A DNA stretch of 64,000 nt, taken from assembly GCF_054482525.1 (NCBI RefSeq), contig NZ_CM137006.1; one strand, given 5' to 3'. Below the pieces are notes generated by a model. It ran no database searches. It was not told the origin of the DNA and saw only the letters and a program-made list of their open reading frames with translations. The position numbers and the translations under genes were made by a program. This document shows, piece by piece, positions 43,476 through 61,298 of the stretch. Numbering within the stretch: the first letter of the stretch is position 1; each line of letters opens with the position of its first letter.

Positions 43476-45053
43476 ATGACGGAAAACATTCATAAGCATC
43501 GCATCCTCATTCTGGACTTCGGTTCTCAGTACACTCAACTGGTTGCGCGCCGCGTGCGTGAACTGGGTGTTTACTGCGAACTGTGGGCGTGGGATGTGAC
43601 AGAAGCACAAATTCGTGACTTCAACCCAAGCGGCATTATTCTTTCCGGCGGCCCGGAAAGCACCACCGAAGAAAACAGCCCGCGCGCGCCGCAGTATGTC
43701 TTTGAAGCAGGCGTACCGGTATTCGGCGTTTGCTATGGCATGCAGACCATGGCAATGCAGTTGGGCGGTCACGTTGAAGCCTCTAACGAACGTGAATTTG
43801 GCTACGCGCAGGTTGAAGTCGTAAACGACAGCGCACTGGTTCGCGGTATCGAAGATGCGCTGACCGCAGACGGTAAACCGCTGCTCGATGTCTGGATGAG
43901 CCACGGCGATAAAGTTACCGCTATCCCGTCCGACTTCGTCACCGTAGCCAGCACCGAAAGCTGCCCGTTTGCCATTATGGCTAACGAAGAAAAACGCTTC
44001 TATGGCGTACAGTTCCACCCGGAAGTGACTCACACCCGCCAGGGTATGCGCATGCTGGAGCGTTTTGTGCGTGATATCTGCCAGTGTGAAGCCCTGTGGA
44101 CGCCAGCGAAAATTATCGACGATGCTGTAGCTCGCATCCGCGAGCAGGTAGGCGACGATAAAGTCATCCTCGGCCTCTCTGGTGGTGTGGATTCCTCCGT
44201 AACCGCAATGCTGCTGCACCGCGCTATCGGTAAAAACCTGACTTGCGTATTCGTCGACAACGGCCTGCTGCGTCTCAACGAAGCAGAGCAGGTTCTGGAT
44301 ATGTTTGGCGATCACTTTGGTCTGAACATTGTTCACGTTCCGGCAGAAGCTCGCTTCCTGTCAGCGTTGGCCGGCGAAAACGATCCGGAAGCAAAACGTA
44401 AAATCATCGGGCGCGTTTTCGTTGAAGTATTCGATGAAGAAGCACTGAAACTGGAAGACGTGAAGTGGCTGGCGCAGGGCACTATCTACCCTGACGTTAT
44501 TGAATCTGCCGCATCTGCAACCGGTAAAGCACACGTCATCAAATCTCACCACAACGTGGGCGGCCTGCCGAAAGAGATGAAGATGGGGCTGGTTGAACCG
44601 CTGAAAGAGCTGTTCAAAGACGAAGTGCGTAAGATTGGTCTGGAGCTGGGCCTGCCGTACGACATGCTGTACCGTCACCCGTTCCCGGGACCAGGCCTCG
44701 GCGTTCGTGTACTGGGCGAAGTGAAGAAAGAGTACTGCGACCTGCTGCGCCGTGCTGACGCCATCTTCATTGAAGAACTGCGTAAAGCGGACCTGTACGA
44801 CAAAGTCAGCCAGGCATTCACCGTCTTCCTGCCGGTACGTTCCGTTGGCGTAATGGGCGATGGTCGTAAGTATGACTGGGTTGTCTCTCTGCGTGCTGTC
44901 GAAACCATCGACTTTATGACCGCACACTGGGCGCACCTGCCGTATGACTTCCTCGGTCGCGTTTCCAACCGCATTATCAATGAAGTGAACGGTATTTCCC
45001 GCGTGGTGTATGACATCAGCGGCAAGCCACCAGCGACTATTGAGTGGGAATGA
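43476..45053 (+). CDS. guaA: GMP synthase (glutamine-hydrolysing)
   Basis: 525 aa; GATase active site CYGMQ; ATP-PPase SGGVDSS; C-terminus …KPPATIEWE appears intact. Confidence 0.95.
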
Positions 45054-45131: not shown

Positions 45132-45245
45132 TATGTATTCATCTCTATTCACTCTACACCATATTTTTCGGCGGTACAGGTGACGGTATTACCCTAAAGG
45201 TATACTCTCATACCGTCATGAAAATGGTTTCTATACGGGTGAATT

Positions 45246-46496
45246 GTGCTTACCGATACAAAATTAAAAAACCTCAAGCCGCAGGACAAACTGTACAAGG
45301 TCTCCGATCGTGACGGGCTGTATGTAGCTGTGCTTACGTCAGGCACGGTCTCGTTTCGCTATGACTACCGTATCAACGGTCGTCGCGAAACACTGGTAAT
45401 CGGGCAGTATGGGCGTGACGGTATCAGCCTGGCAGAAGCGCGAGAAGAACTGATTGCTGCAAAGAAGCTGCTTAAAGCAGGCCAGTCGCCGGCTGCGGCT
45501 AAACGTGACGGTATCAAAAAGATTCGTGGTGCCGAGACGTTTGCGGTACATACCGACAGTTATATGAAACACGTCATCCTGGCTGACAGTACCCGCGCAA
45601 TGAAGCAGGCGGTGATTGACCGTGACATACTTCCGGTTCTTGGTAACAAAATGATGGCTGAAATTACCACATCGATGGTTCGTGATTTGTGTGACCGGAT
45701 TGTCGAACGCGGTGGTCGGGCAACAGCAGTACAGGCCAGGGAGATCATCAGCAGCGTATACCGTCACGCCAATGACCGTGGTCATGGTTTGTTTAATCCT
45801 GCGGCTGACATTAAACCTTCGTCTATCGCCATATTTAAACCACGAGAGCGAACACTGACACCAGAAGAAATTGGCCTGTTCTTCCGCACGCTGGATGCCA
45901 TTGGTGCTATGGGCACTATGAAAATGGCTTTAAAGCTGGTGCTTATCACTATGGTTCGTAAAGGCGAATTCACCAACGCAACGTGGGATGAAATAGATTT
46001 TAAAAAATGGACATGGACAATTCCTTCAGACCGCATGAAGGGAAGCCGGGCGCACGTTATTTACCTGCCTAAACAGGCTCAGGATATATTGGTCGGGTTG
46101 CAGATGTGCGCTGGTGGAAGTGAATATCTGGTTCCTGGTCGTTACAATTTCCGGAAGCCATTATCTAATGCCGCGCTGAACTCTCTGATCGACAGAACGG
46201 TGAAAATAATAAATGAAGATGGTGAGCATATTCAGGGCTTCACCGTACACGATATGCGCCGTACAGCCAGTACGTTGTTGCATGAGGCTGGTTATCCTTC
46301 AGACTGGATTGAAAAGGCTCTGGCACATGAGCAGAAAGGTGTGCGCGCCGTATATAACAAAGCGGAATACGCCAGACAGCGCGCCTACATGTTGCAGCAG
46401 TGGGCCGATATGATTGATTCCTGGATTAACGGGGAGCATACGGATCTGATTCCGTTCTCCCCGTCGAAGTTTGAGAAGTGGATGGCGGGGGAATAA
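45246..46496 (+). CDS. int: Phage tyrosine integrase (P4/CP4-57-like, N-terminal arm-binding domain)
   Basis: 416 aa; C-terminal catalytic region with HDMRRTASTLL and conserved R/H/Y context; first gene after guaA. Confidence 0.9.
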   Translation: MLTDTKLKNLKPQDKLYKVSDRDGLYVAVLTSGTVSFRYDYRINGRRETLVIGQYGRDGISLAEAREELIAAKKLLKAGQSPAAAKRDGIKKIRGAETFAVHTDSYMKHVILADSTRAMKQAVIDRDILPVLGNKMMAEITTSMVRDLCDRIVERGGRATAVQAREIISSVYRHANDRGHGLFNPAADIKPSSIAIFKPRERTLTPEEIGLFFRTLDAIGAMGTMKMALKLVLITMVRKGEFTNATWDEIDFKKWTWTIPSDRMKGSRAHVIYLPKQAQDILVGLQMCAGGSEYLVPGRYNFRKPLSNAALNSLIDRTVKIINEDGEHIQGFTVHDMRRTASTLLHEAGYPSDWIEKALAHEQKGVRAVYNKAEYARQRAYMLQQWADMIDSWINGEHTDLIPFSPSKFEKWMAGE

Positions 46497-46694: not shown

Positions 46695-47353
46695 GCAGCA
46701 CGCTCCCGCCCCTGGTTGTCTGTTGGTGACATCGGAGAATTGCTGAATGCATTTGTTAATCCGCCAATATCCAACGCGTATCCTGGGTGTAGTTGCACTG
46801 CCGGGCCTTCGCACTGGTTACCCCAAACATCGAAGCCATGAGACGTCTGGCGGGCGAACAGTTCAATGCGAGAAACATCGCCTAACAATTGCACAAGTTT
46901 TTCACGAACGACATCTGGTTTTCTTGAATGCTCAAGCCGCGGTGCGGTAAATGACTGAACGATACCTGCATTAATGCGCGGAGGTAGTTTTCCCTTTACT
47001 GCAAACAGGCAATCTTCACTATTGGCGCGAGTCATGTGTCCCATACCCATAACCAGTTTATCTGGTTGTCGACTACCACATTTTATCCACGTGAAGCCCT
47101 TCATGGTCATCAGACGGAATCCCCAGGCTTCAACAACTTTTAGTGCTTCGAGTGGTTGTGTTGGCACCCACCACATGGCCAACAGACAGTTTTCATCGGC
47201 CAAATCCCACACAGGAAGGCGGCAGATATCCAGCACACTCATAACAGGATATTTAAAACCGGCACCGCGATTACCATCTGCGGCTTTGTCCCGGTATACC
47301 CAGGGTGGATCTGCATAGATTAGTGTGTATTTCTTAGTCATAAACCACCCCAC
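46691..47353 (-). CDS. MT-A70 family DNA N6-adenine methyltransferase (orphan, phage-encoded)
   Basis: DPPW catalytic motif (LIYADPPWVY); no adjacent restriction endonuclease. Confidence 0.8.
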   Translation of the reverse strand: MGWFMTKKYTLIYADPPWVYRDKAADGNRGAGFKYPVMSVLDICRLPVWDLADENCLLAMWWVPTQPLEALKVVEAWGFRLMTMKGFTWIKCGSRQPDKLVMGMGHMTRANSEDCLFAVKGKLPPRINAGIVQSFTAPRLEHSRKPDVVREKLVQLLGDVSRIELFARQTSHGFDVWGNQCEGPAVQLHPGYALDIGGLTNAFSNSPMSPTDNQGRERAA

Positions 47354-47633
47354 AACATCCTATGCCGCTATAGTCGCCACGGCGAAGGCCGTTACCTTTT
47401 GTGATACATTGGTCCCTGCGAACCGCGATCCTTGCACGTTCAACATCACCAGAAGCAACATCCATACACTGAAGCCAAAGGTGAGCGGCAATGCGGAATT
47501 GCCCTTTTTTCTCTCTTTCAATCGCGCGTTTTTCGATCTCTATCGCCGCAGGAGTAACGGCGACAATCTTTGAAGGGCTGCGCATTGAAACCTTGTTCAT
47601 GTGATATTTTTCAAGTCGGCTTAACTTTCTCAC
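47334..47633 (-). CDS. Hypothetical phage protein
   Basis: 99-aa ORF between excisionase and methyltransferase; no recognisable motif. Confidence 0.4.
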   Translation of the reverse strand: MRKLSRLEKYHMNKVSMRSPSKIVAVTPAAIEIEKRAIEREKKGQFRIAAHLWLQCMDVASGDVERARIAVRRDQCITKGNGLRRGDYSGIGCCGVVYD

Positions 47634-50190: not shown

Positions 50191-50297
50191 TAACTTGTTA
50201 CCTCGGTTTGTTACCGTTGAGGTAATGATTATGCGTATTTGGTTTGGTGTCAATAGATATGAGTTAAAAAAATTACCCACAAGGTAATCTTGCTGGC

Positions 50298-50344: not shown

Positions 50345-50929
50345 TTATTGTTTGCTTTTTTCGTTCTGGTTGATGACAAATTCAATGTAACTTTCGATCT
50401 TTGCTTTCTCGGTTTCGGGTAACAATGCGTAGCGCGAGCGGTCATAGTTGATAGTCGCAGGGTCGTGCGGGTGAATCAGTAATTCATAGCCGTGACGCCC
50501 GAATGCGGATGCAACATTCTCCAGGGTGGAAATGGAAACGCTGACCTCATTGTTTAACAGGCGGCTGATTGTCACCTGGGCGACGCCGGATGCGCGGTGA
50601 AGTTTTCCCTGTGTTGAAAGGTCGCGGCTTTCGCTCATCCAGCGTTCCAGGTTGTGAGCCGCCAGCTGACCAATGTCGCTTGGGCCGACAGGCTGAAAAC
50701 CTTCCTGAGAAAGCGAGCGATCGATATCAAGCCAGTTACGGGGTTTATTGGCGGCAGCTTCAATTTTTCGCGCAACCTGGTCGCCGATAACCTTCTTACC
50801 AAGAGCCCAGCGGTTTACCAGATTTGCCTGAGTTCCAAGTTTTTCTGCCATCCGCGTCTGAACACCATTGAATTCACGGTCGATCAAGTCGTTGAGATTT
50901 TGCCTGCGGACGTCCTGGATACTTTTCAT
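50345..50929 (-). CDS. CI-like prophage repressor with two HTH segments, no S24 peptidase domain
   Basis: 194 aa; HTH-like segments (TRMAEKLGTQANLVNRW and GVAQVTISRLLNNE); divergent from Cro-like gene; no Ala-Gly/Ser-Lys autocleavage motifs seen. Confidence 0.7.
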   Translation of the reverse strand: MKSIQDVRRQNLNDLIDREFNGVQTRMAEKLGTQANLVNRWALGKKVIGDQVARKIEAAANKPRNWLDIDRSLSQEGFQPVGPSDIGQLAAHNLERWMSESRDLSTQGKLHRASGVAQVTISRLLNNEVSVSISTLENVASAFGRHGYELLIHPHDPATINYDRSRYALLPETEKAKIESYIEFVINQNEKSKQ

Positions 50930-51083
50930 TTTCTGGAAAATCGCCTCATATATGAATCAGTAGATGATTCAATTTAAAGCAATATTACCCAACAGGTAAA
51001 TGCACCCCATAGGTAACTATCCTTGATTTTTGTTACCTTATGGGTGAATATTTATTATCTGAAATAAATATCAGGCAATAGCT
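50930..51083. promoter_or_regulatory. Immunity-region divergent promoter/operator (PRM/PR equivalent)
   Basis: Contains TTACCCAACAGGTAA (50985-50999) and near-copy TTACCTTATGGGTGA (51033-51047). Confidence 0.7.
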
Positions 51084-51314: not shown

Positions 51315-51336
51315 TATCCAGCCACAACCCTCTGTA

Positions 51337-51360
51337 GACCGCCACCCGGCGGTCTTTTCA
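51337..51360 (+). terminator. Rho-independent terminator (tR1-like) after cro-like gene
   Basis: gaccgccacccggcggtc hairpin followed by ttttca. Confidence 0.6.
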
Positions 51361-51462
51361 TATCTATTCGTACCTCAAAGGTAATAAAAAACCAAATCTG
51401 GTTGATCAAATTTTCCAATTGTGCAAAATAGCCAATATCAATAACAAAAAGGGGCGGAAAAA

Positions 51463-51675
51463 TTGAAGATAGTAACCAGAATGGAGGCCGCAAAAGCCGG
51501 GTTAAATCGCTATTTCACAGGAAAGCGGTGCCGTCACGGCCATCTCTCTGAAAGGTATGTTCTGAACGGAACATGTGTTGAATGTGCAATGAATAGCGCC
51601 AACCGCCATCGTAATGAATTTGCTTGTGCACTAAAGAGTGCAAGAGGGGAAACCTATGGCAAGCAGCTGGATTAA
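51463..51675 (+). CDS. Small Cys/His-rich (zinc-binding?) phage protein
   Basis: 70 aa; C-x-H-G-H…C-x2-C pattern; 3' end overlaps O-like gene. Confidence 0.45.
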   Translation: MKIVTRMEAAKAGLNRYFTGKRCRHGHLSERYVLNGTCVECAMNSANRHRNEFACALKSARGETYGKQLD

Positions 51676-53234: not shown

Positions 53235-53351
53235 TACCAGCGCGATAGCGCATTTTTTTACGCCTACATGATTACCTGTTGGGTAATAAAATGTTCTAAT
53301 CTCTATTGATTTCATGTCTTATGTGGTTTTTAATTACCTAAGGGGTAAATC

Positions 53352-54276: not shown

Positions 54277-54761
54277 GCGAAATTAATTACCAGGCACTGC
54301 GTGAGGCGGCGGAACGTGCAATTCCAGCAATGGAACGCCTGTTAATGTTGCCAGCTGATGATGATTTGTTAAGTGAACAGGAACTTAAAGATTACGGTGT
54401 GGATATTGATGCGCTCAACGCCTTCAAATTTCTGGCCGGACCAGAAACCGTGCTGGCACTACTGGATGAACGGGAAAGGAACCAGCAATACATCAAATCC
54501 CGCGACCAGGAGAACGAGGATATTGCGCTAACGGTAGGGAAGTTGCGCGTTGAGCTTGAGGCAGAAAAACAGCGGGCAAAGGATCTGTTTATGGAAAATG
54601 CTCGGCTTAAGTCAGGTATAGCCGGTCTGATACACCTCGGTATTCGATATGCAGATGTTGATGTCATGAAAATTGCTGGAGATGCCCAGCTTTCTACCCC
54701 ATGCACTGACAGCATCATAAACAGCATTGCAACAGGCATTCGCATCAACGGAGGTGAGTAG
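54273..54761 (+). CDS. ead/Ea22-like phage protein
   Basis: 162 aa; MSEINYQALREAAE… N-terminus typical of Ea22-like proteins; overlaps previous gene stop. Confidence 0.5.
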   Translation: MSEINYQALREAAERAIPAMERLLMLPADDDLLSEQELKDYGVDIDALNAFKFLAGPETVLALLDERERNQQYIKSRDQENEDIALTVGKLRVELEAEKQRAKDLFMENARLKSGIAGLIHLGIRYADVDVMKIAGDAQLSTPCTDSIINSIATGIRINGGE

Positions 54762-54841
54762 TGCGTGTGGCATGTATTGGCTTGTTACCGTACCCGACTC
54801 GTTTTTGGGCTTCTGCGCTAATTGCAAAGCCACAGGTCCTG

Positions 54842-54937
54842 ATGGCTGACAACATCACCCCAGCACCAAAGCGCCGCCATACCGGTATTGCAGCGGCACG
54901 ACGAGCAGCAAAGAGACGCAGGAGAGCAAAGCGATGA
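54842..54937 (+). CDS. Arg-rich micro-ORF (A)
   Basis: MADNITPAPKRRHTGIAAARRAAKRRRRAKR; its TGA overlaps the next ATG (ATGA); start could be GTG at 54761. Confidence 0.35.
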   Translation: MADNITPAPKRRHTGIAAARRAAKRRRRAKR

Positions 54938-55110
54938 AAAACCGTAAGGCAAAACGACTTTTTTTACAGCGACCTGTGCGTGTGGTGGAGCTGGTTATTA
55001 GCAACCATAAGATAGCGGTACTCCATCCATTTGGTCAGGTGGCTTTTGCCGCAAAGCGTAAGCCTACTGCGTCACAGAACAGGCGGAAGAAAGGGTACGC
55101 AGTAAGATGA
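54934..55110 (+). CDS. Basic micro-protein (B), paralogous N-terminus MKNRKAK
   Basis: 58 aa; ATGA-coupled to next ORF. Confidence 0.4.
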   Translation: MKNRKAKRLFLQRPVRVVELVISNHKIAVLHPFGQVAFAAKRKPTASQNRRKKGYAVR

Positions 55111-55295
55111 AAAACCGTAAAGCAAAGATTCTGTTAGTTCGTAGAAACGCTCCTGGCGTCTGGCAGTGGGTGAGACTCAGCAACCGACGGATGGGGTTGA
55201 TGAAATATTACGGGATGATGGATTGTGGTTTTTGCAAAAAGCCCAGCGCGGCGCAAAACCGCTGGAAAAACCATTTGCGCACTAAAGGAGAGTGA
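55107..55295 (+). CDS. Basic micro-protein (C), paralogous N-terminus MKNRKAK, Cys pair
   Basis: 62-aa ORF in track; same MKNRKAK start as ORF B. Confidence 0.5.
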   Translation: MKNRKAKILLVRRNAPGVWQWVRLSNRRMGLMKYYGMMDCGFCKKPSAAQNRWKNHLRTKGE

Positions 55296-57215: not shown

Positions 57216-57565
57216 TGGACTATTCACAGTTAAGTGATTTTGAAATTAACAGAATGGTAGGAGACATAATTTTTAAAGGCCTTTGGGCGTGTAAACCGGA
57301 AACATCAGGGAATAACACCAACAAATGGTATTACGGAAATACTGATACAACTTTTGAGCCATTAAACCCTTTACCTGACTACTGCAATAATCCATCGGAT
57401 GCATGGCCTATTATTGTTGATAATAAAATCAGTCTAACCTGCCACCAATCTCGCGGTGAGTGGTCAGCTGTTTTTAATGTCGAGAACATTTGCTTTCATG
57501 CGAATAATCCACTCCGAGCCGCCATGATTGTATTTCTCATGATGCAGGAAAATCAGAATGGCTAA
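57212..57565 (+). CDS. NinX-like protein
   Basis: 117 aa; N-terminus MDYSQLSDFEIN resembles NinX/DUF2591 family. Confidence 0.5.
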   Translation: MMDYSQLSDFEINRMVGDIIFKGLWACKPETSGNNTNKWYYGNTDTTFEPLNPLPDYCNNPSDAWPIIVDNKISLTCHQSRGEWSAVFNVENICFHANNPLRAAMIVFLMMQENQNG

Positions 57566-57896
57566 ATCAGCAGCAGAGCGCAAAGCCGCTCAGAGAGCCA
57601 GACAAGCTGCATCTGGTGTGCGTAAGCTGGAGATTGTGCTTGATGCTCAGGAAATTGAAATGCTTGAGCGTAACTGTGCCGCACGTCGCCCCGGGCGTGC
57701 GCCTTACGAATTTGGTGAGTATATAGCGTTACTGATCCGCCAGGATGATGCACGCGTGCGCGGGCGTATAAAATCGATCAGTAGAAAACGTTGCGGTAAG
57801 TGCGGCGAGAGAGTTCCCGTTAATTCATGCCCGTGTAATGGTGACTCGCAATGCTGGGTGACTAAAGGCTGGTATGAAACGAAATTAATAGTGTGA
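57558..57896 (+). CDS. Small basic protein with C-terminal Cys cluster (possible regulator)
   Basis: 112 aa; CGKCGERVPVNSCPCNGDSQC zinc-ribbon-like; last gene before terminator and terminase. Confidence 0.45.
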   Translation: MAKSAAERKAAQRARQAASGVRKLEIVLDAQEIEMLERNCAARRPGRAPYEFGEYIALLIRQDDARVRGRIKSISRKRCGKCGERVPVNSCPCNGDSQCWVTKGWYETKLIV

Positions 57897-57945
57897 CATG
57901 TCACGAGTAGATTATGCATGATGAATTTGACGGGTTTTGAATACT

Positions 57946-57971
57946 GCCGCCAACTATGGCGGCTTTATTTT
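57946..57971 (+). terminator. Rho-independent terminator upstream of terminase small subunit
   Basis: gccgccaactatggcggc hairpin followed by tttatttt. Confidence 0.6.
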
Positions 57972-58014
57972 GCATGGTACTATTACCACAACGGTAACTA
58001 TTACCACGGTGGTT

Positions 58015-58611
58015 ATGATGCCTGCTGAACCTAAAACCTATAAACGCAAATCAACGCAATTTAAGCCACTAACAGCAATGCAGGAGGCTTATTGCCAGTC
58101 ATACATCAAAACGCCTGAAAACCAGACTCAGGCAGCGATTAACGCAGGATTCTCCCCAAATACAGCGGCAGTTAAAGCCAGTGTCATGATGCGCGATGAA
58201 CGCATTCAGAAACGGATTGCCGAGTTGATGGAGGAGCGCAACAAACGAATGCGCGTCAGTGCTGATTACGTTCTCATGCGCCTGGTGGAGATCGACCAGA
58301 TGGACGTTATCGACATCCTCAACGACGATGGGAGCCTTAAACCAATCCGTGAGTGGCCGAAAATCTGGCGCACTACGCTTAGTGGCTTTGATCTGTCATC
58401 GACCATCATGAACATGAACGAGGATTCGATAGAGACAATCCTCAAAAAAATTAAATGGCCTGACAAGGTGAAGAACCTTGAGCTGATTGGTAAGCATGTT
58501 GATGTCAATGCGTTCAAAGAACGTCTGGATGTTAATGTGAATGTGACAATTGCTGATCGCATAGCGGCAGCCAGGAAGAGACTGAAAGAACGTCAGGATG
58601 GCAATCAGTGA
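58015..58611 (+). CDS. Terminase small subunit
   Basis: ORF 57937..58611; start placed after terminator at MMPAEPK; sequence resembles small-terminase proteins; directly precedes large subunit. Confidence 0.7.
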   Translation: MMPAEPKTYKRKSTQFKPLTAMQEAYCQSYIKTPENQTQAAINAGFSPNTAAVKASVMMRDERIQKRIAELMEERNKRMRVSADYVLMRLVEIDQMDVIDILNDDGSLKPIREWPKIWRTTLSGFDLSSTIMNMNEDSIETILKKIKWPDKVKNLELIGKHVDVNAFKERLDVNVNVTIADRIAAARKRLKERQDGNQ

Positions 58612-60129: not shown

Positions 60130-60156
60130 ACAAAGCCAGCTCATAGGCTGGCTGTT
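60130..60156 (-). terminator. Terminator of reverse-strand moron transcript
   Basis: On minus strand: agccagcctatgagctggct hairpin followed by ttgtttt. Confidence 0.5.
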
Positions 60157-60173
60157 TGTGACATGTCACAGAG

Positions 60174-60596
60174 CTAGAAAATAATTTCATCAAATGCAGC
60201 ATTTATTGCCTTTGCTTCGCTAATGGCGCCTTGTTTATCGACAATAGCTTTTTTACCAAGCACCTCGGCAAGGCACTGTAGCTTCATGTTGTATAAGTGT
60301 TCGCTCATGTAATCATTATCACTTTTTGCTTTAGCGCAAACAGAGCGAGAAATATCAAACACATCGCCTTTTTCCATTTCAGAACGTTGTGCTGTTATCC
60401 AGTCATGGAACGTAACGCTAGTACCATGGTCTTCGCTAAGAGTTAACCCGGTCAGTCCCTCACTCTGAATTACTTCGTAATGCATTTCATTACCAGCAAA
60501 AACGCCATAAAAAACGCAGTCTTCAGCCTGAACGATACGAGAATATTTTAATGGCCATTCATTTAGATACTTAGCCAACATATCAATTGTTTTCAT
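60174..60596 (-). CDS. Hypothetical 140-aa protein (reverse-oriented moron)
   Basis: Opposite strand to flanking terminase and portal genes; no recognisable motif; own terminator. Confidence 0.55.
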   Translation of the reverse strand: MKTIDMLAKYLNEWPLKYSRIVQAEDCVFYGVFAGNEMHYEVIQSEGLTGLTLSEDHGTSVTFHDWITAQRSEMEKGDVFDISRSVCAKAKSDNDYMSEHLYNMKLQCLAEVLGKKAIVDKQGAISEAKAINAAFDEIIF

Positions 60597-60794
60597 GATC
60601 TCACCTTAAAAAAATGCCCGGCGAACCGGGCGAACTGGAAGCAATGAGTTATGCCTTCCGTGGCTGTACGGGTTTACAGCATGAAGTCATCGCAATGGCG
60701 TCCTGCTGTAAAAAGGGCGGTGATAGTCCTTCAAGGGAAACCATCACCGCCAAGCACCTGGAACTTCTGGCATCACGGTCCTTAGGCGTGATTC

Positions 60795-60871
60795 TGGCGC
60801 GGCATGCAGGATTCGAACCTGCGACCAACCGCTTAGAAGGCGGTTGCTCTGTCCAACTGAGCTAATGCCAC
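60795..60871 (-). tRNA. tRNA-Arg (anticodon UCU), phage-encoded
   Basis: Hand-folded cloverleaf: acceptor GUGGCAU/AUGCCGC, D-arm GCUCAGUUGGACAGAGC, anticodon stem ACCGC/GCGGU with loop CUUCUAA, T-arm CGCAGGUUCGAAUCCUGC, 3' GCCA encoded. Confidence 0.85.
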
Positions 60872-61298
60872 AACGCTGAGAGCACTTAGCCTGTTAAGGC
60901 GCCACACTTTGTCGCGGCTCCATAAATGCTCTCATCGTTGTACCCTCGTCTCTTCCGAGGTGTCACACCGAATCGCCGGGATGGTGAATCCCCGTGCGCG
61001 GAATAAAACCGCTCGACTTGCACATTCCGGCTACCTGGTTCGTTTGCCCGAGCAAGGGAGGGTGCCCCTTAAACGTATCCAGACCGCTATCGGCGCATGT
61101 GCCATACGCCGTACTGCTCAAAATAAAAGCTCACCCCACCTGTTCAATTTAACGACAAGCCAGTCAGATTAGTAACTGGAGTGAATTCTTTGGTTACCTG
61201 AAAGGTAATAATTCGTGCGTTAAATGTCAACTGTCTACGATAAATAAATCATATGTGGTTAAATTGGTAATAATTTAATTGCGTACGGAGTCATTGAT
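60872..61298. promoter_or_regulatory. ~430-bp non-coding region upstream of portal; likely promoters for tRNA/moron (leftward) and portal operon (rightward)
   Basis: No credible ORF; contains TTACCTGAAAGGTAA at 61204-61218 and AT-rich -10-like sequences. Confidence 0.45.

What the first reader, a model, noticed from the sequence alone, without database searches (positions are those of the whole stretch)
57558..58015. No Q antiterminator or lysis genes between replication and packaging modules; candidate late regulator instead
From the P-like gene to the terminase small subunit there are only small unknown nin-like ORFs. The last one before the terminase (57558-57896) has a basic N-terminus and a C-terminal Cys cluster (CGKCGERVPVNSCPCNGDSQC) and is followed by a strong terminator 40 bp before the terminase start. 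Late transcription must either read through this terminator (antitermination) or start in a very short gap. The Zn-ribbon protein is the positional candidate for a late-gene regulator.
Basis: inference. Interest (0 to 1): 0.4.

Follow-up and report, generated by a model that had tools for sequence, protein, structure and literature searches.

The report
Phage DNA-binding protein with linked palindrome
The small zinc-cluster gene before the phage packaging genes encodes an uncharacterised DNA-binding protein, but the packaging genes most likely have their own promoter in the short gap, shut off directly by the prophage repressor, so no lambda-style late regulator is needed.

Summary
The window holds an epsilon15/phiV10-like (Uetakevirus) prophage at guaA. 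ORF 57558-57896 is real, and a strong terminator lies 40-45 nt before the terminase gene. No Q-like or lysis gene lies between the replication and packaging genes; in relatives the lysis cassette sits at the far end of the prophage.

The "late regulator" reading is only weakly supported. The gap holds an extended -10 promoter element (TGnTAnnAT, 57975-57983). It is present in all 25 distinct upstream variants, including those that lack the terminator. It abuts two TTACC-N5-GGTAA palindromes, the same motif that flanks the repressor gene. The epsilon15 GenBank record annotates these sites as repressor-binding, including the one before its terminase gene. Homologues of the ORF coexist with Q-like antiterminators in N15, ZF40 and AH07.

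The protein itself (PHROG 536) folds as a ribbon-helix-helix (RHH) domain plus a four-cysteine zinc ribbon. One thing appears to be new: a 12-bp palindrome, GTGACATGTCAC, overlaps its stop codon. It keeps that position in the Uetakevirus and N15 clades and lies within a few bases of the stop in ZF40, AH07 and an Aeromonas phage. It recurs beside terminators at other operon ends. It is probably the protein's binding site; what binding achieves is unknown.

The parts
57558..57896 (+). Gene for a 112-aa protein of PHROG 536. It has an N-terminal basic helix (residues 5-19), a ribbon-helix-helix core (strand 22-28, helices 30-42 and 52-74), a four-Cys zinc ribbon (C79, C82, C91, C99) and a C-terminal helix (100-108).
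57893..57904 (.). Perfect 12-bp palindrome GTGACATGTCAC that contains the ORF's TGA stop codon. Probable binding site of the RHH protein.
   Evidence: Two exact copies in the window. GTGAC-NN-GTCAC lies at the same offset (-1 from the stop) in 45 distinct Uetakevirus and N15-type contexts. It lies at or near the stop in ZF40, AH07 and an Aeromonas phage. About 15 of 80 IMG/VR stretches holding the exact 14-mer have it within 25 nt of a family gene's stop.
57946..57972 (+). Intrinsic terminator closing the early-right (nin) transcription unit: stem 57946-57963, T-run 57964-57972.
   Evidence: Conserved in most relatives but absent in those with a UmuD-like insert. Annotated in epsilon15.
57975..57983 (+). 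Extended -10 promoter element TGgTACTAT of the packaging operon (P_terS). No -35 element. The inferred start site is near 57990.
   Evidence: TGnTAnnAT is present at -40 to -42 from the ATG in all 25 distinct upstream variants from 80 loci. Its geometry relative to the operator matches PL and P_nin, as read from the sequences shown.
57983..57997 (.). Repressor operator TTACCACAACGGTAA. It starts at the last T of the -10 element.
   Evidence: The motif is found 13 times against 1.1 expected, clustered at regulatory gaps. The homologous site is annotated 'protein_bind: repressor' in epsilon15 at 12-27.
58001..58015 (.). Second operator TTACCACGGTGGTTA (one mismatch). It overlaps the Shine-Dalgarno sequence GGTGG (58008-58012).
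58018..58611 (+). Terminase small subunit gene. The conserved start is ATG 58018.
   Evidence: Pfam Terminase_2, E=1e-29. Start-codon conservation.
60158..60169 (.). Second exact copy of GTGACATGTCAC. It lies between the stop of the minus-strand ORF 60174-60596 and that ORF's terminator.
   Evidence: The same position holds a copy in epsilon15, SPN1S and Tyrion.
60134..60153 (-). Minus-strand intrinsic terminator 4 nt from the second palindrome.
50345..50929 (-). Prophage repressor (Rep), a homologue of the Salmonella phage SPC32H repressor.
   Evidence: PDB 5d50, E=3.5e-42. 43% identical to the epsilon15 repressor. HTH_3 domain.
50211..50287 (.). Two operators 62 bp apart (50211-50225 and 50273-50287) around the leftward promoter PL.
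50985..51047 (.). Operators in the rep/cro intergenic region (50985-50999 and 51033-51047) overlapping PR.
53272..53348 (.). Two operators 62 bp apart (53272-53286 and 53334-53348) around a TTGATT-17-TTTAAT promoter, which heads the nin unit that ends with the RHH gene.
   Evidence: Promoter read from the sequence.
61194..61208 (.). Operator between the tRNA/moron unit and the portal operon.
   Evidence: The homologous site is annotated as a repressor site in epsilon15 at 2931-2947.

Best explanation
The prophage is a Uetakevirus (epsilon15/phiV10 type). Its genome is cut into short transcription units, each with its own sigma-70 promoter overlapped by the operator TTACC-N5-GGTAA of the SPC32H-type repressor Rep.

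**Packaging operon.** I infer that it is transcribed from an extended -10 promoter (57975-57983) in the 45-nt gap after the terminator. Two operators cover its start site and ribosome-binding site. The late genes would then switch on when Rep is inactivated. The phage would need neither Q nor read-through of the terminator. The terminator simply ends the preceding nin unit.

**ORF 57558-57896.** It is the last gene of that nin unit. It encodes a dimeric ribbon-helix-helix protein with a C-terminal zinc ribbon. I infer that it binds the 12-bp palindrome GTGACATGTCAC, which overlaps its own stop codon and recurs beside terminators at other operon ends. The most likely effect is local control of RNA polymerase passage or of a weak promoter at these junctions, that is, an accessory regulator rather than the master late switch.

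**Shown versus inferred.**
- Shown: motif positions and their conservation, the predicted fold, and the linkage of gene and palindrome.
- Inferred: promoter activity, Rep binding in this phage, binding of the protein to the palindrome, and the consequence of that binding.
For: **Identity of the prophage.** 96.8-99.6% DNA identity to TL-2011b, HEMP4 and ZX5. Lysis genes lie at the far end in TL-2011b, epsilon15, SPN1S and Tyrion.

**Operator motif.**
- 13 copies against 1.1 expected, clustered at the gaps beside rep, before the nin unit, before terS and before the portal operon.
- The same layout in four other genomes.
- Epsilon15's record labels these sites as repressor-binding, including 12-27 before its terS.
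- Rep is a homologue of SPC32H Rep, which binds palindromic sites as a tetramer (PMC9638917).
- Rep overexpression in ZX5 lowers holin and endolysin mRNA by more than 99.9% (PMC9782041).

**Promoter in the gap.** TGnTAnnAT is invariant in 25 of 25 upstream variants, even where the terminator is replaced by an inserted gene.

**The protein.**
- PHROG 536; AF2 pLDDT 92.
- Strands form only in the linked-dimer model.

**Palindrome linkage.** In L222 two copies lie 28 bp apart just upstream of a gene that shares only the basic helix and beta-strand with this protein.

**Homologues with Q.** Homologues coexist with Q-like genes in N15, ZF40 and AH07.
Against: - No transcript or binding data exist for this phage.
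- The consensus promoter scan did not list the extended -10 site, because it has no -35 element.
- If every promoter answers only to Rep, the source of early/late timing is unexplained, so a further regulator may still exist.
- The papers on Rep operators (Kim & Ryu 2013; Kropinski 2007) could not be read. The repressor-site label therefore rests on a GenBank annotation whose experimental basis I could not check.
- More distant family members (P0138, P0143) show no palindrome at the stop codon.
- 58 of the 80 palindrome-bearing stretches hold no family gene within the DNA held.
- The dimer model has only moderate confidence (pLDDT 70).
Confidence: 0.6

Rival explanations
1. The RHH/zinc protein is the late-gene switch. 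Once made from the early operon, it acts at the palindrome next to the terminator and lets polymerase read through into terS, and similarly at other terminators. This would be functionally like Q or N.
For: - The gene lies directly before terS in 78 of the 80 related IMG/VR loci examined.
- There is no Q in the phage.
- All 12 exact palindromes in five genomes lie beside G+C-rich terminator-type hairpins at operon ends.
- The palindrome overlaps a weak promoter-like site, GTGACA-18-CATGAT, followed about 25 nt later by the terminator. This layout recalls lambda PR'-tR'.
- The N-terminal helix is arginine-rich.
Against: - Homologues coexist with Q-like proteins and lie far from late promoters in N15, ZF40 and AH07.
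- The terminator is absent in relatives with a UmuD-like insert, yet the palindrome and the terS promoter/operators persist.
- The spacing between palindrome and terminator varies from 1 to about 40 nt, and inserted genes can separate them.
- An RHH fold indicates DNA binding rather than RNA binding.
- The operator-covered promoter offers a simpler route.
Confidence: 0.12
2. The palindrome is not the protein's binding site. It is a module-boundary sequence, a recombination hot spot where accessory genes are inserted, or a site for a host protein. Its position at the gene's stop codon would then be hitch-hiking.
For: - Inserted genes (a 186-nt small ORF; an SOS-box plus UmuD-like gene) always begin directly after it.
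- The other copies lie at junctions between conserved modules and variable minus-strand genes.
- 58 of 80 palindrome-bearing stretches show no family gene in the DNA held.
Against: - The offset of -1 from the stop is identical in Uetakevirus and N15-type phages, whose proteins are only about 33% identical and whose neighbouring genes are unrelated.
- ZF40, AH07 and an Aeromonas phage also keep it at or near the stop.
- L222 has two copies in operator position before a gene that shares only the DNA-binding N-terminus.
- It is not the N15 SopB centromere, which is GTGCGACC-NN-GGTCGCAC (PMC7205306).
Confidence: 0.2
3. Another phage protein is the late activator. The candidate is the PerC-like protein in the early-left operon (47334-47633, minus strand), and the RHH protein has an unrelated role.
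For: - Pfam PerC, E=6e-7, and PHROG 868 'transcriptional activator', E=5.7e-62.
- The gene is conserved in TL-2011b, SPN1S and Tyrion.
- The terS promoter lacks a -35 element, which is common for activator-dependent promoters.
Against: - No conserved sequence that could serve as an activator site exists upstream of the -10 element; that region is the terminator in some relatives and an inserted gene in others.
- An extended -10 element can work without a -35 element or an activator (established knowledge of sigma-70 promoters).
Confidence: 0.08

Closest known systems
Epsilon15 gp49, phiV10 and TL-2011b F365_gp20 (orthologues), and N15 gp46 / phiKO2 gp45 (PHROG 536)
   Same: Same family, with 77-97% identity within Uetakevirus and about 33-37% to N15 gp46 and phiKO2 gp45. 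In the podoviruses it holds the same position as the last gene before terS.
   Different: None of these has a tested function. 'Transcriptional regulator' is an automated label. In N15 the gene lies in the middle of the early region, downstream of Q.
Ribbon-helix-helix regulators (Arc/Mnt of P22, CopG, AmrZ, TacA and ParD antitoxins)
   Same: The predicted beta-alpha-alpha core, a strand that forms only in the dimer model, and a short palindromic candidate site.
   Different: - It carries an extra N-terminal basic helix and a C-terminal four-Cys zinc ribbon.
- It has no significant sequence match to any RHH family in Pfam or NCBIfam, nor to any PDB chain; the only hit is a sub-threshold one to the LexA-regulated protein family.
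- The candidate site lies at the 3' end of the gene, not in its promoter.
Lambda Q with the PR'-tR' late switch
   Same: A small zinc-containing DNA-binding protein made late in the early operon, with a nearby promoter-like site followed closely by a terminator before the late genes.
   Different: - No match to Q families.
- Homologues coexist with real Q-like proteins.
- The terminator is dispensable in relatives.
SPC32H Rep/Ant switch and the repressor sites annotated in epsilon15
   Same: The window's repressor is a Rep homologue. The operator motif and its positions, including the one before terS, match the epsilon15 annotation. TL-2011b also carries Ant.
   Different: The operator motif is unchanged although this repressor is only 43% identical to that of epsilon15. 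Binding has not been tested for this phage.
Mycobacteriophage L5 gp71 'stoperators' (from my own knowledge, not checked here)
   Same: One repressor with many sites spread along the genome, including the late region.
   Different: L5 sites are asymmetric and block elongation. Here the sites are palindromes placed on promoters.

Membership tests
PHROG 536 ('transcriptional regulator') | Full-length match to the family profile | tested here: met
   E=1.2e-53, residues 1-111 against profile positions 2-114 of 115.
Ribbon-helix-helix (CopG/Arc/MetJ) superfamily | Beta-alpha-alpha fold | tested here: met
Ribbon-helix-helix (CopG/Arc/MetJ) superfamily | Dimer with a two-stranded antiparallel ribbon formed by the N-terminal strands | tested here: inconclusive
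   Residues 22-28 are strands in both copies of a linked-dimer model but not in the monomer model. The dimer model has pLDDT 70, and the strand pairing itself could not be inspected.
Ribbon-helix-helix (CopG/Arc/MetJ) superfamily | Sequence match to a curated RHH family | tested here: not met
   No Pfam hit at E<0.1 except an irrelevant DUF4457. NCBIfam gives only a sub-threshold hit to 'LexA regulated protein' (14 bits against a cut-off of 62). No PDB sequence hit.
Ribbon-helix-helix (CopG/Arc/MetJ) superfamily | Sequence-specific binding to repeated or palindromic DNA | not testable with these tools
   The candidate site GTGACATGTCAC is inferred only from linkage to the gene.
Lambda-type Q antiterminators | Membership of a Q protein family | tested here: not met
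   No Q or antiterminator family hit for this ORF or any other tested ORF of the early regions.
Lambda-type Q antiterminators | A constitutive late promoter with a Q-binding element, followed by a terminator that Q overrides | tested here: inconclusive
   The promoter-like site GTGACA-18-CATGAT overlaps the palindrome and precedes the terminator. However, the spacing and the terminator are not conserved.
P2 Ogr / P4 Delta zinc-finger late activators | Ogr_Delta protein family, with a TGT-N12-ACA element near -55 of late promoters | tested here: not met
   No Pfam hit. Reading 57897-58014 directly shows no TGT-N12-ACA.
RepB-like replication regulatory proteins (the label used for the AH07 homologue) | Match to Pfam RepB-RCR_reg | tested here: not met
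   No such hit at E<0.1.
Uetakevirus Rep-controlled promoters | A TTACC-N5-GGTAA operator overlapping a promoter, as annotated in epsilon15 | tested here: met
   Sites at 57983 and 58001 abut the -10 element. The homologous epsilon15 site is annotated as a repressor site.
Uetakevirus Rep-controlled promoters | Binding of Rep to the site and repression of terS transcription | not testable with these tools
   Only indirect evidence: Rep overexpression lowers holin and endolysin mRNA in ZX5.

The most novel reading that the evidence does not exclude
PHROG 536 proteins and the palindrome GTGAC-NN-GTCAC form a previously undescribed regulatory module, spread across unrelated temperate phages: Uetakevirus, N15-like, ZF40, AH07, and P2-like Yersinia phages. 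In this module an RHH/zinc-ribbon protein binds a site hard-wired to its own stop codon and to other operon ends beside intrinsic terminators. There it controls whether polymerase passes from one module to the next. In Q-less Uetakeviruses this could set the early-to-late timing.
Probability: 0.15. Interest if true: 0.7.

Novelty: new variant of a known kind. Interest (0 to 1): 0.42.

Why it matters
**How common it is.** This prophage type is in 635 of 5,426 complete E. coli genomes, and its gene before terS is everywhere labelled hypothetical.

**What is already explained.** The missing Q and lysis genes are the normal architecture of this phage group. They are accounted for by many repressor-covered promoters, so that part of the finding needs no further follow-up.

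**What is worth an experiment.** The linkage between gene and palindrome gives a specific binding prediction for an uncharacterised family that spans several phage lineages. The palindrome's position beside terminators hints at a way of controlling transcription at module junctions that has not been described. If confirmed, it would help explain how temperate phages without N or Q order their gene expression.

Tried and rejected
- **Sequence searches on the protein.** Pfam, NCBIfam and PDB sequence searches gave nothing usable.
- **Fold searches.** Foldseek against PDB was weak; the best hit was TTHA0139 at E=0.75. BFVD returned only a fragment of the same family. The AFDB library was unavailable.
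- **N15 centromere idea.** I considered that the N15-type palindrome might be the SopB centromere. It is not: the N15 IR1-4 sites are GTGCGACC-NN-GGTCGCAC.
- **CRP, LexA or Ogr site.** I considered each for the palindrome. The half-site spacing (4 bp, not 6) and the sequence do not fit. This is read from the sequence and my own knowledge.
- **HNH-like nuclease finger.** I considered this for the zinc ribbon. No conserved His or Asn is present.
- **RNA element.** As a hairpin the palindrome is no better than shuffled sequence (-2.9 kcal/mol, z = -0.18). Rfam finds only the tRNA.
- **Literature.** Kropinski 2007 and Kim & Ryu 2013 are not held. No held paper contains the palindrome sequence.
- **Extra homologue loci.** A search for Aeromonas-type homologue loci in IMG/VR found none.
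- **More distant family members.** P0138, P0143 and P0146 show no palindrome within 45 nt of the stop. P0146 has GTGACGCGTCAC 138 nt downstream, and P0180 has a one-mismatch copy at +19.
Full report
**1. What the window holds**

guaA ends at 45053. An integrase gene follows at 45246, and from there to the end of the window runs a prophage. Its DNA is 99.6% identical to phage HEMP4, 98.1% to vB_EcoP_ZX5 and 96.8% to TL-2011b, with long matches to phiV10. These are Uetakeviruses, the epsilon15 group. ZX5 is reported to integrate at the 3' end of guaA (PMC9782041).

The gene order on the window is as follows:
- integrase;
- a leftward early operon with a methyltransferase, a PerC-like protein, an AlpA-like protein, RecT and an exonuclease;
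- the repressor (50345-50929, minus strand);
- a cro-like gene (51084);
- DnaT-like and lambda-P-like replication genes;
- a nin-like region;
- terS, then terL;
- a minus-strand unit with an ORF and tRNA-Arg;
- the portal gene.

**2.

- The terminator folds at -14.5 kcal/mol, z = -3.55.
- None of the 19 ORFs tested in the early regions matches a Q, N or lysis family in Pfam or PHROGs.
- The absence of lysis genes here is the normal layout of this phage group. In TL-2011b, epsilon15, SPN1S and Tyrion the holin, endolysin and Rz genes follow the tailspike region, at the other end of the prophage, outside this window.
- One correction: the conserved terS start is ATG 58018. The ATG at 58015 is mutated in several relatives.

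**3. Where late transcription most likely starts**

I collected 80 related loci from IMG/VR and compared the DNA between the ORF and terS. The spacer length varies: 103-121 nt in most, 307 nt where a small ORF is inserted, and 410-663 nt in five loci with larger inserts, four of which carry an SOS-box plus a UmuD-like gene. In those four the terminator is gone. Two things never change:

- **An extended -10 element.** TGnTAnnAT lies 40-42 nt before the ATG in all 25 distinct variants. On the window it is TGgTACTAT at 57975-57983. There is no -35 element; the terminator stem occupies that position.
- **Two palindromes.** Two copies of TTACC-N5-GGTAA follow directly, at 57983-57997 and 58001-58015. 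The second covers the Shine-Dalgarno sequence.

The motif TTACC-N5-GGTAA occurs 13 times in the window at up to one mismatch, against 1.1 expected by chance. Ten of the 13 lie in regulatory gaps of the prophage:
- two on the leftward side of the repressor gene;
- two between the repressor and cro;
- one after the cro terminator;
- two before the nin unit;
- two before terS;
- one before the portal operon.

An eleventh, with one mismatch, lies just upstream of the integrase gene.

TL-2011b, epsilon15, SPN1S and Tyrion show the same layout, with further copies before the tailspike gene and, in the last three, before the lysis cassette.

The geometry repeats at PL, at the nin promoter (TTGATT-17-TTTAAT) and at terS. 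In each case the last T of the -10 hexamer is the first T of the operator (read from the sequences).

The epsilon15 GenBank record already annotates these sites as 'protein_bind: repressor', including 12-27 just before its terS. It also annotates the terminator after gp49. The window's repressor is a homologue of SPC32H Rep (PDB 5d50, E=3.5e-42). SPC32H Rep is reported to bind palindromic sites as a tetramer (PMC9638917). In ZX5, Rep overexpression lowers holin and endolysin mRNA by more than 99.9%.

The simplest reading is this: every module, including packaging, has its own Rep-covered promoter, and terminators insulate the modules from one another. Neither Q nor read-through is required. 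Promoter activity and Rep binding on this DNA are inferred, not shown.

**4. What the ORF encodes**

- It matches PHROG 536 but no Pfam, NCBIfam or PDB sequence family.
- A profile search of 1.84 billion representatives found only 231 clusters, so the family is small.
- An AlphaFold model built from 84 diverse members has pLDDT 92.4. Its elements are helix 5-19, an extended segment 20-29, helices 30-42 and 52-74, a zinc-ribbon-like hairpin 76-99 and helix 100-108.
- When two copies are joined by a linker and modelled, residues 22-28 become strands in both copies, as expected for an RHH ribbon. Confidence is moderate, pLDDT 70.
- C79 and C82 are invariant, C99 is 98% conserved, and the fourth ligand is C91 here. 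No His or Asn is conserved that would suggest a nuclease finger.

The protein is therefore best described as a dimeric RHH DNA-binding protein with an added basic N-terminal helix and a C-terminal zinc ribbon.

**5. Is it the late regulator?**

The comparative evidence argues against it:
- N15 has the homologue gp46 and also the Q-like late activator gp40, with its own late promoter and terminator annotated elsewhere.
- ZF40 has gp22 (66% identical over the aligned region) and a Q-like gp25.
- Pantoea phage AH07 carries the homologue in the leftward operon beside xis, and an antitermination gene before the lysis genes.
- In P2-like Yersinia phages it follows the replication gene A.

The family is thus an accessory early gene in phages whose late switch is provided by something else. 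Its place directly before terS is specific to the podoviruses.

A rival candidate for an activator, a PerC-like protein, lies in the left operon. However, no conserved activator site exists upstream of the terS -10 element.

**6. A linked palindrome**

The stop codon of the ORF lies inside a perfect 12-bp palindrome, GTGACATGTCAC (57893-57904). A second exact copy lies at 60158-60169.

*Position relative to terminators.*
- Across the five Uetakevirus genomes, all 12 exact copies lie beside G+C-rich terminator-type hairpins at operon ends. The positions are after this ORF, after terL (between the stop and terminator of the minus-strand ORF), after the last structural gene, and after Ant in TL-2011b.
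- Inserted accessory genes always begin right after the first copy. In one relative (L066) an extra small ORF separates the family gene from the palindrome, which there overlaps that ORF's stop codon. So the palindrome is not merely the coding end of the family gene.

*Linkage to the gene in unrelated phages.*
- ZF40 has an exact copy 3 nt after the gp22 stop, and two more elsewhere.
- AH07 has GTGACAGGTCAC over the stop of gene 31.
- N15 has GTGACTGGTCAC over the stop of gene 46.
- An Aeromonas phage has a two-mismatch copy over the stop.
- Among all loci held, 45 distinct stop-codon contexts have GTGAC-NN-GTCAC. Every one listed (SPN1S and the N15-type contexts) has it at offset -1 from the stop.
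- The chance of one such match in a 60-nt window is about 5e-5 (my calculation from 10 specified bases).

*The reverse test.* I scanned IMG/VR for the exact 14-mer TGTGACATGTCACA and examined 80 stretches. Of these, 22 hold a family gene, and in about 15 the palindrome lies within 25 nt of that gene's stop. At least 19 of 77 distinct contexts have a terminator-like hairpin beside the palindrome, although some of these contexts are homologous to one another.

*L222.* In this locus two copies lie 28 bp apart just upstream of a gene whose product shares only the basic helix and strand (PAERKAAERARRRSQGLVLKQIW) with this protein.

*What the palindrome is not.*
- It is not the N15 SopB centromere.
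- It appears in no held paper.
- As RNA it folds no better than shuffled sequence.

I conclude that it is probably the protein's binding site.

What binding achieves is open. Possibilities are a roadblock or insulator at operon ends, control of the weak promoter-like site that overlaps the first copy (GTGACA-18-CATGAT), or modulation of termination. More distant family members lack the site at their stop codon, so the rule is not universal.

**7. Verdict**

- The missing Q and lysis genes are ordinary for this phage group, and the repressor site before terS is already annotated in epsilon15.
- The ORF is a likely DNA-binding regulator, but there is little support for it being the late switch.
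- The part that appears new is the module of RHH/zinc-ribbon gene plus stop-codon palindrome, and the palindrome's position beside terminators. This is a concrete, testable lead of moderate interest.

The prophage region is common: it occurs in 635 of 5,426 complete E. coli genomes, where the gene is annotated as hypothetical.

Noticed in passing
window 60174-60871 (minus strand): A minus-strand unit lies between terL and the portal gene. It holds an ORF of 140 aa (PHROG 4846, unknown function) and tRNA-Arg(TCT) at 60795-60871, with three minus-strand terminator-like hairpins. An operator at 61194-61208 lies at its upstream end.
   Followed up: partly
L066, L067, L068, L084 (IMG/VR relatives), between the palindrome and terS: Some relatives carry an inserted gene for a UmuD-like protein, preceded by TTGACT-17-TATACT and a LexA-type box (TACTGT-N8-ACAGTA). 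It replaces the terminator. Late genes in those phages might receive SOS-induced read-through.
   Followed up: partly
L009, L010, L013 and others (IMG/VR relatives): A 186-nt insertion encoding a small ORF of about 70 aa (MPKIRYDLEDMRDNSANFPKEV...) sits directly after the palindrome in about 15 loci.
   Followed up: no
window 54934-55295: Two adjacent, paralogous small basic ORFs both start MKNRKAK (58 and 62 aa; PHROG 1380/12350). A third small basic ORF lies at 54761-54937. In some phages the second is fused to the downstream PHROG 9263 protein.
   Followed up: partly
window 47334-47633 (minus strand): A PerC-like 'transcriptional activator' (Pfam PerC E=6e-7; PHROG 868 E=5.7e-62) lies in the early-left operon. 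It is conserved in TL-2011b, SPN1S and Tyrion, and its target is unknown.
   Followed up: partly
window 51336-51675: A terminator (51336-51355) lies directly after the cro-like gene, followed by an operator-like site (51370-51384). Next comes a 70-aa Cys-rich ORF (CRHGH...CVEC; PHROG 1081, unknown function). So PR transcripts may stop after cro unless a further promoter restarts transcription.
   Followed up: no
window 50211-50287 and 53272-53348; L087 32554-32631 and 35907-35983: Operator pairs at PL and at the nin promoter are exactly 62 bp apart centre to centre, in both the window and epsilon15. At terS the spacing is 18 bp. This may relate to the tetrameric binding reported for SPC32H Rep.
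   Followed up: no
window 50345-50929 versus L087 32690-33286: The repressors of this prophage and of epsilon15 are only 43% identical, yet both genomes use the same operator half-sites (TTACC/GGTAA). This raises the question of whether the two phages are really hetero-immune.
   Followed up: no
L222 3825-4278: A metagenomic viral contig has two GTGACATGTCAC palindromes 28 bp apart, upstream of a gene of about 130 aa. That gene shares only the N-terminal basic helix and strand with the PHROG 536 protein and has no zinc ribbon.
   Followed up: partly
window 45189-45203: An operator-like site with one mismatch (TTACCCTAAAGGTAT) lies just upstream of the integrase gene. It is conserved at the same place in TL-2011b, epsilon15, SPN1S and Tyrion.
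   Followed up: no
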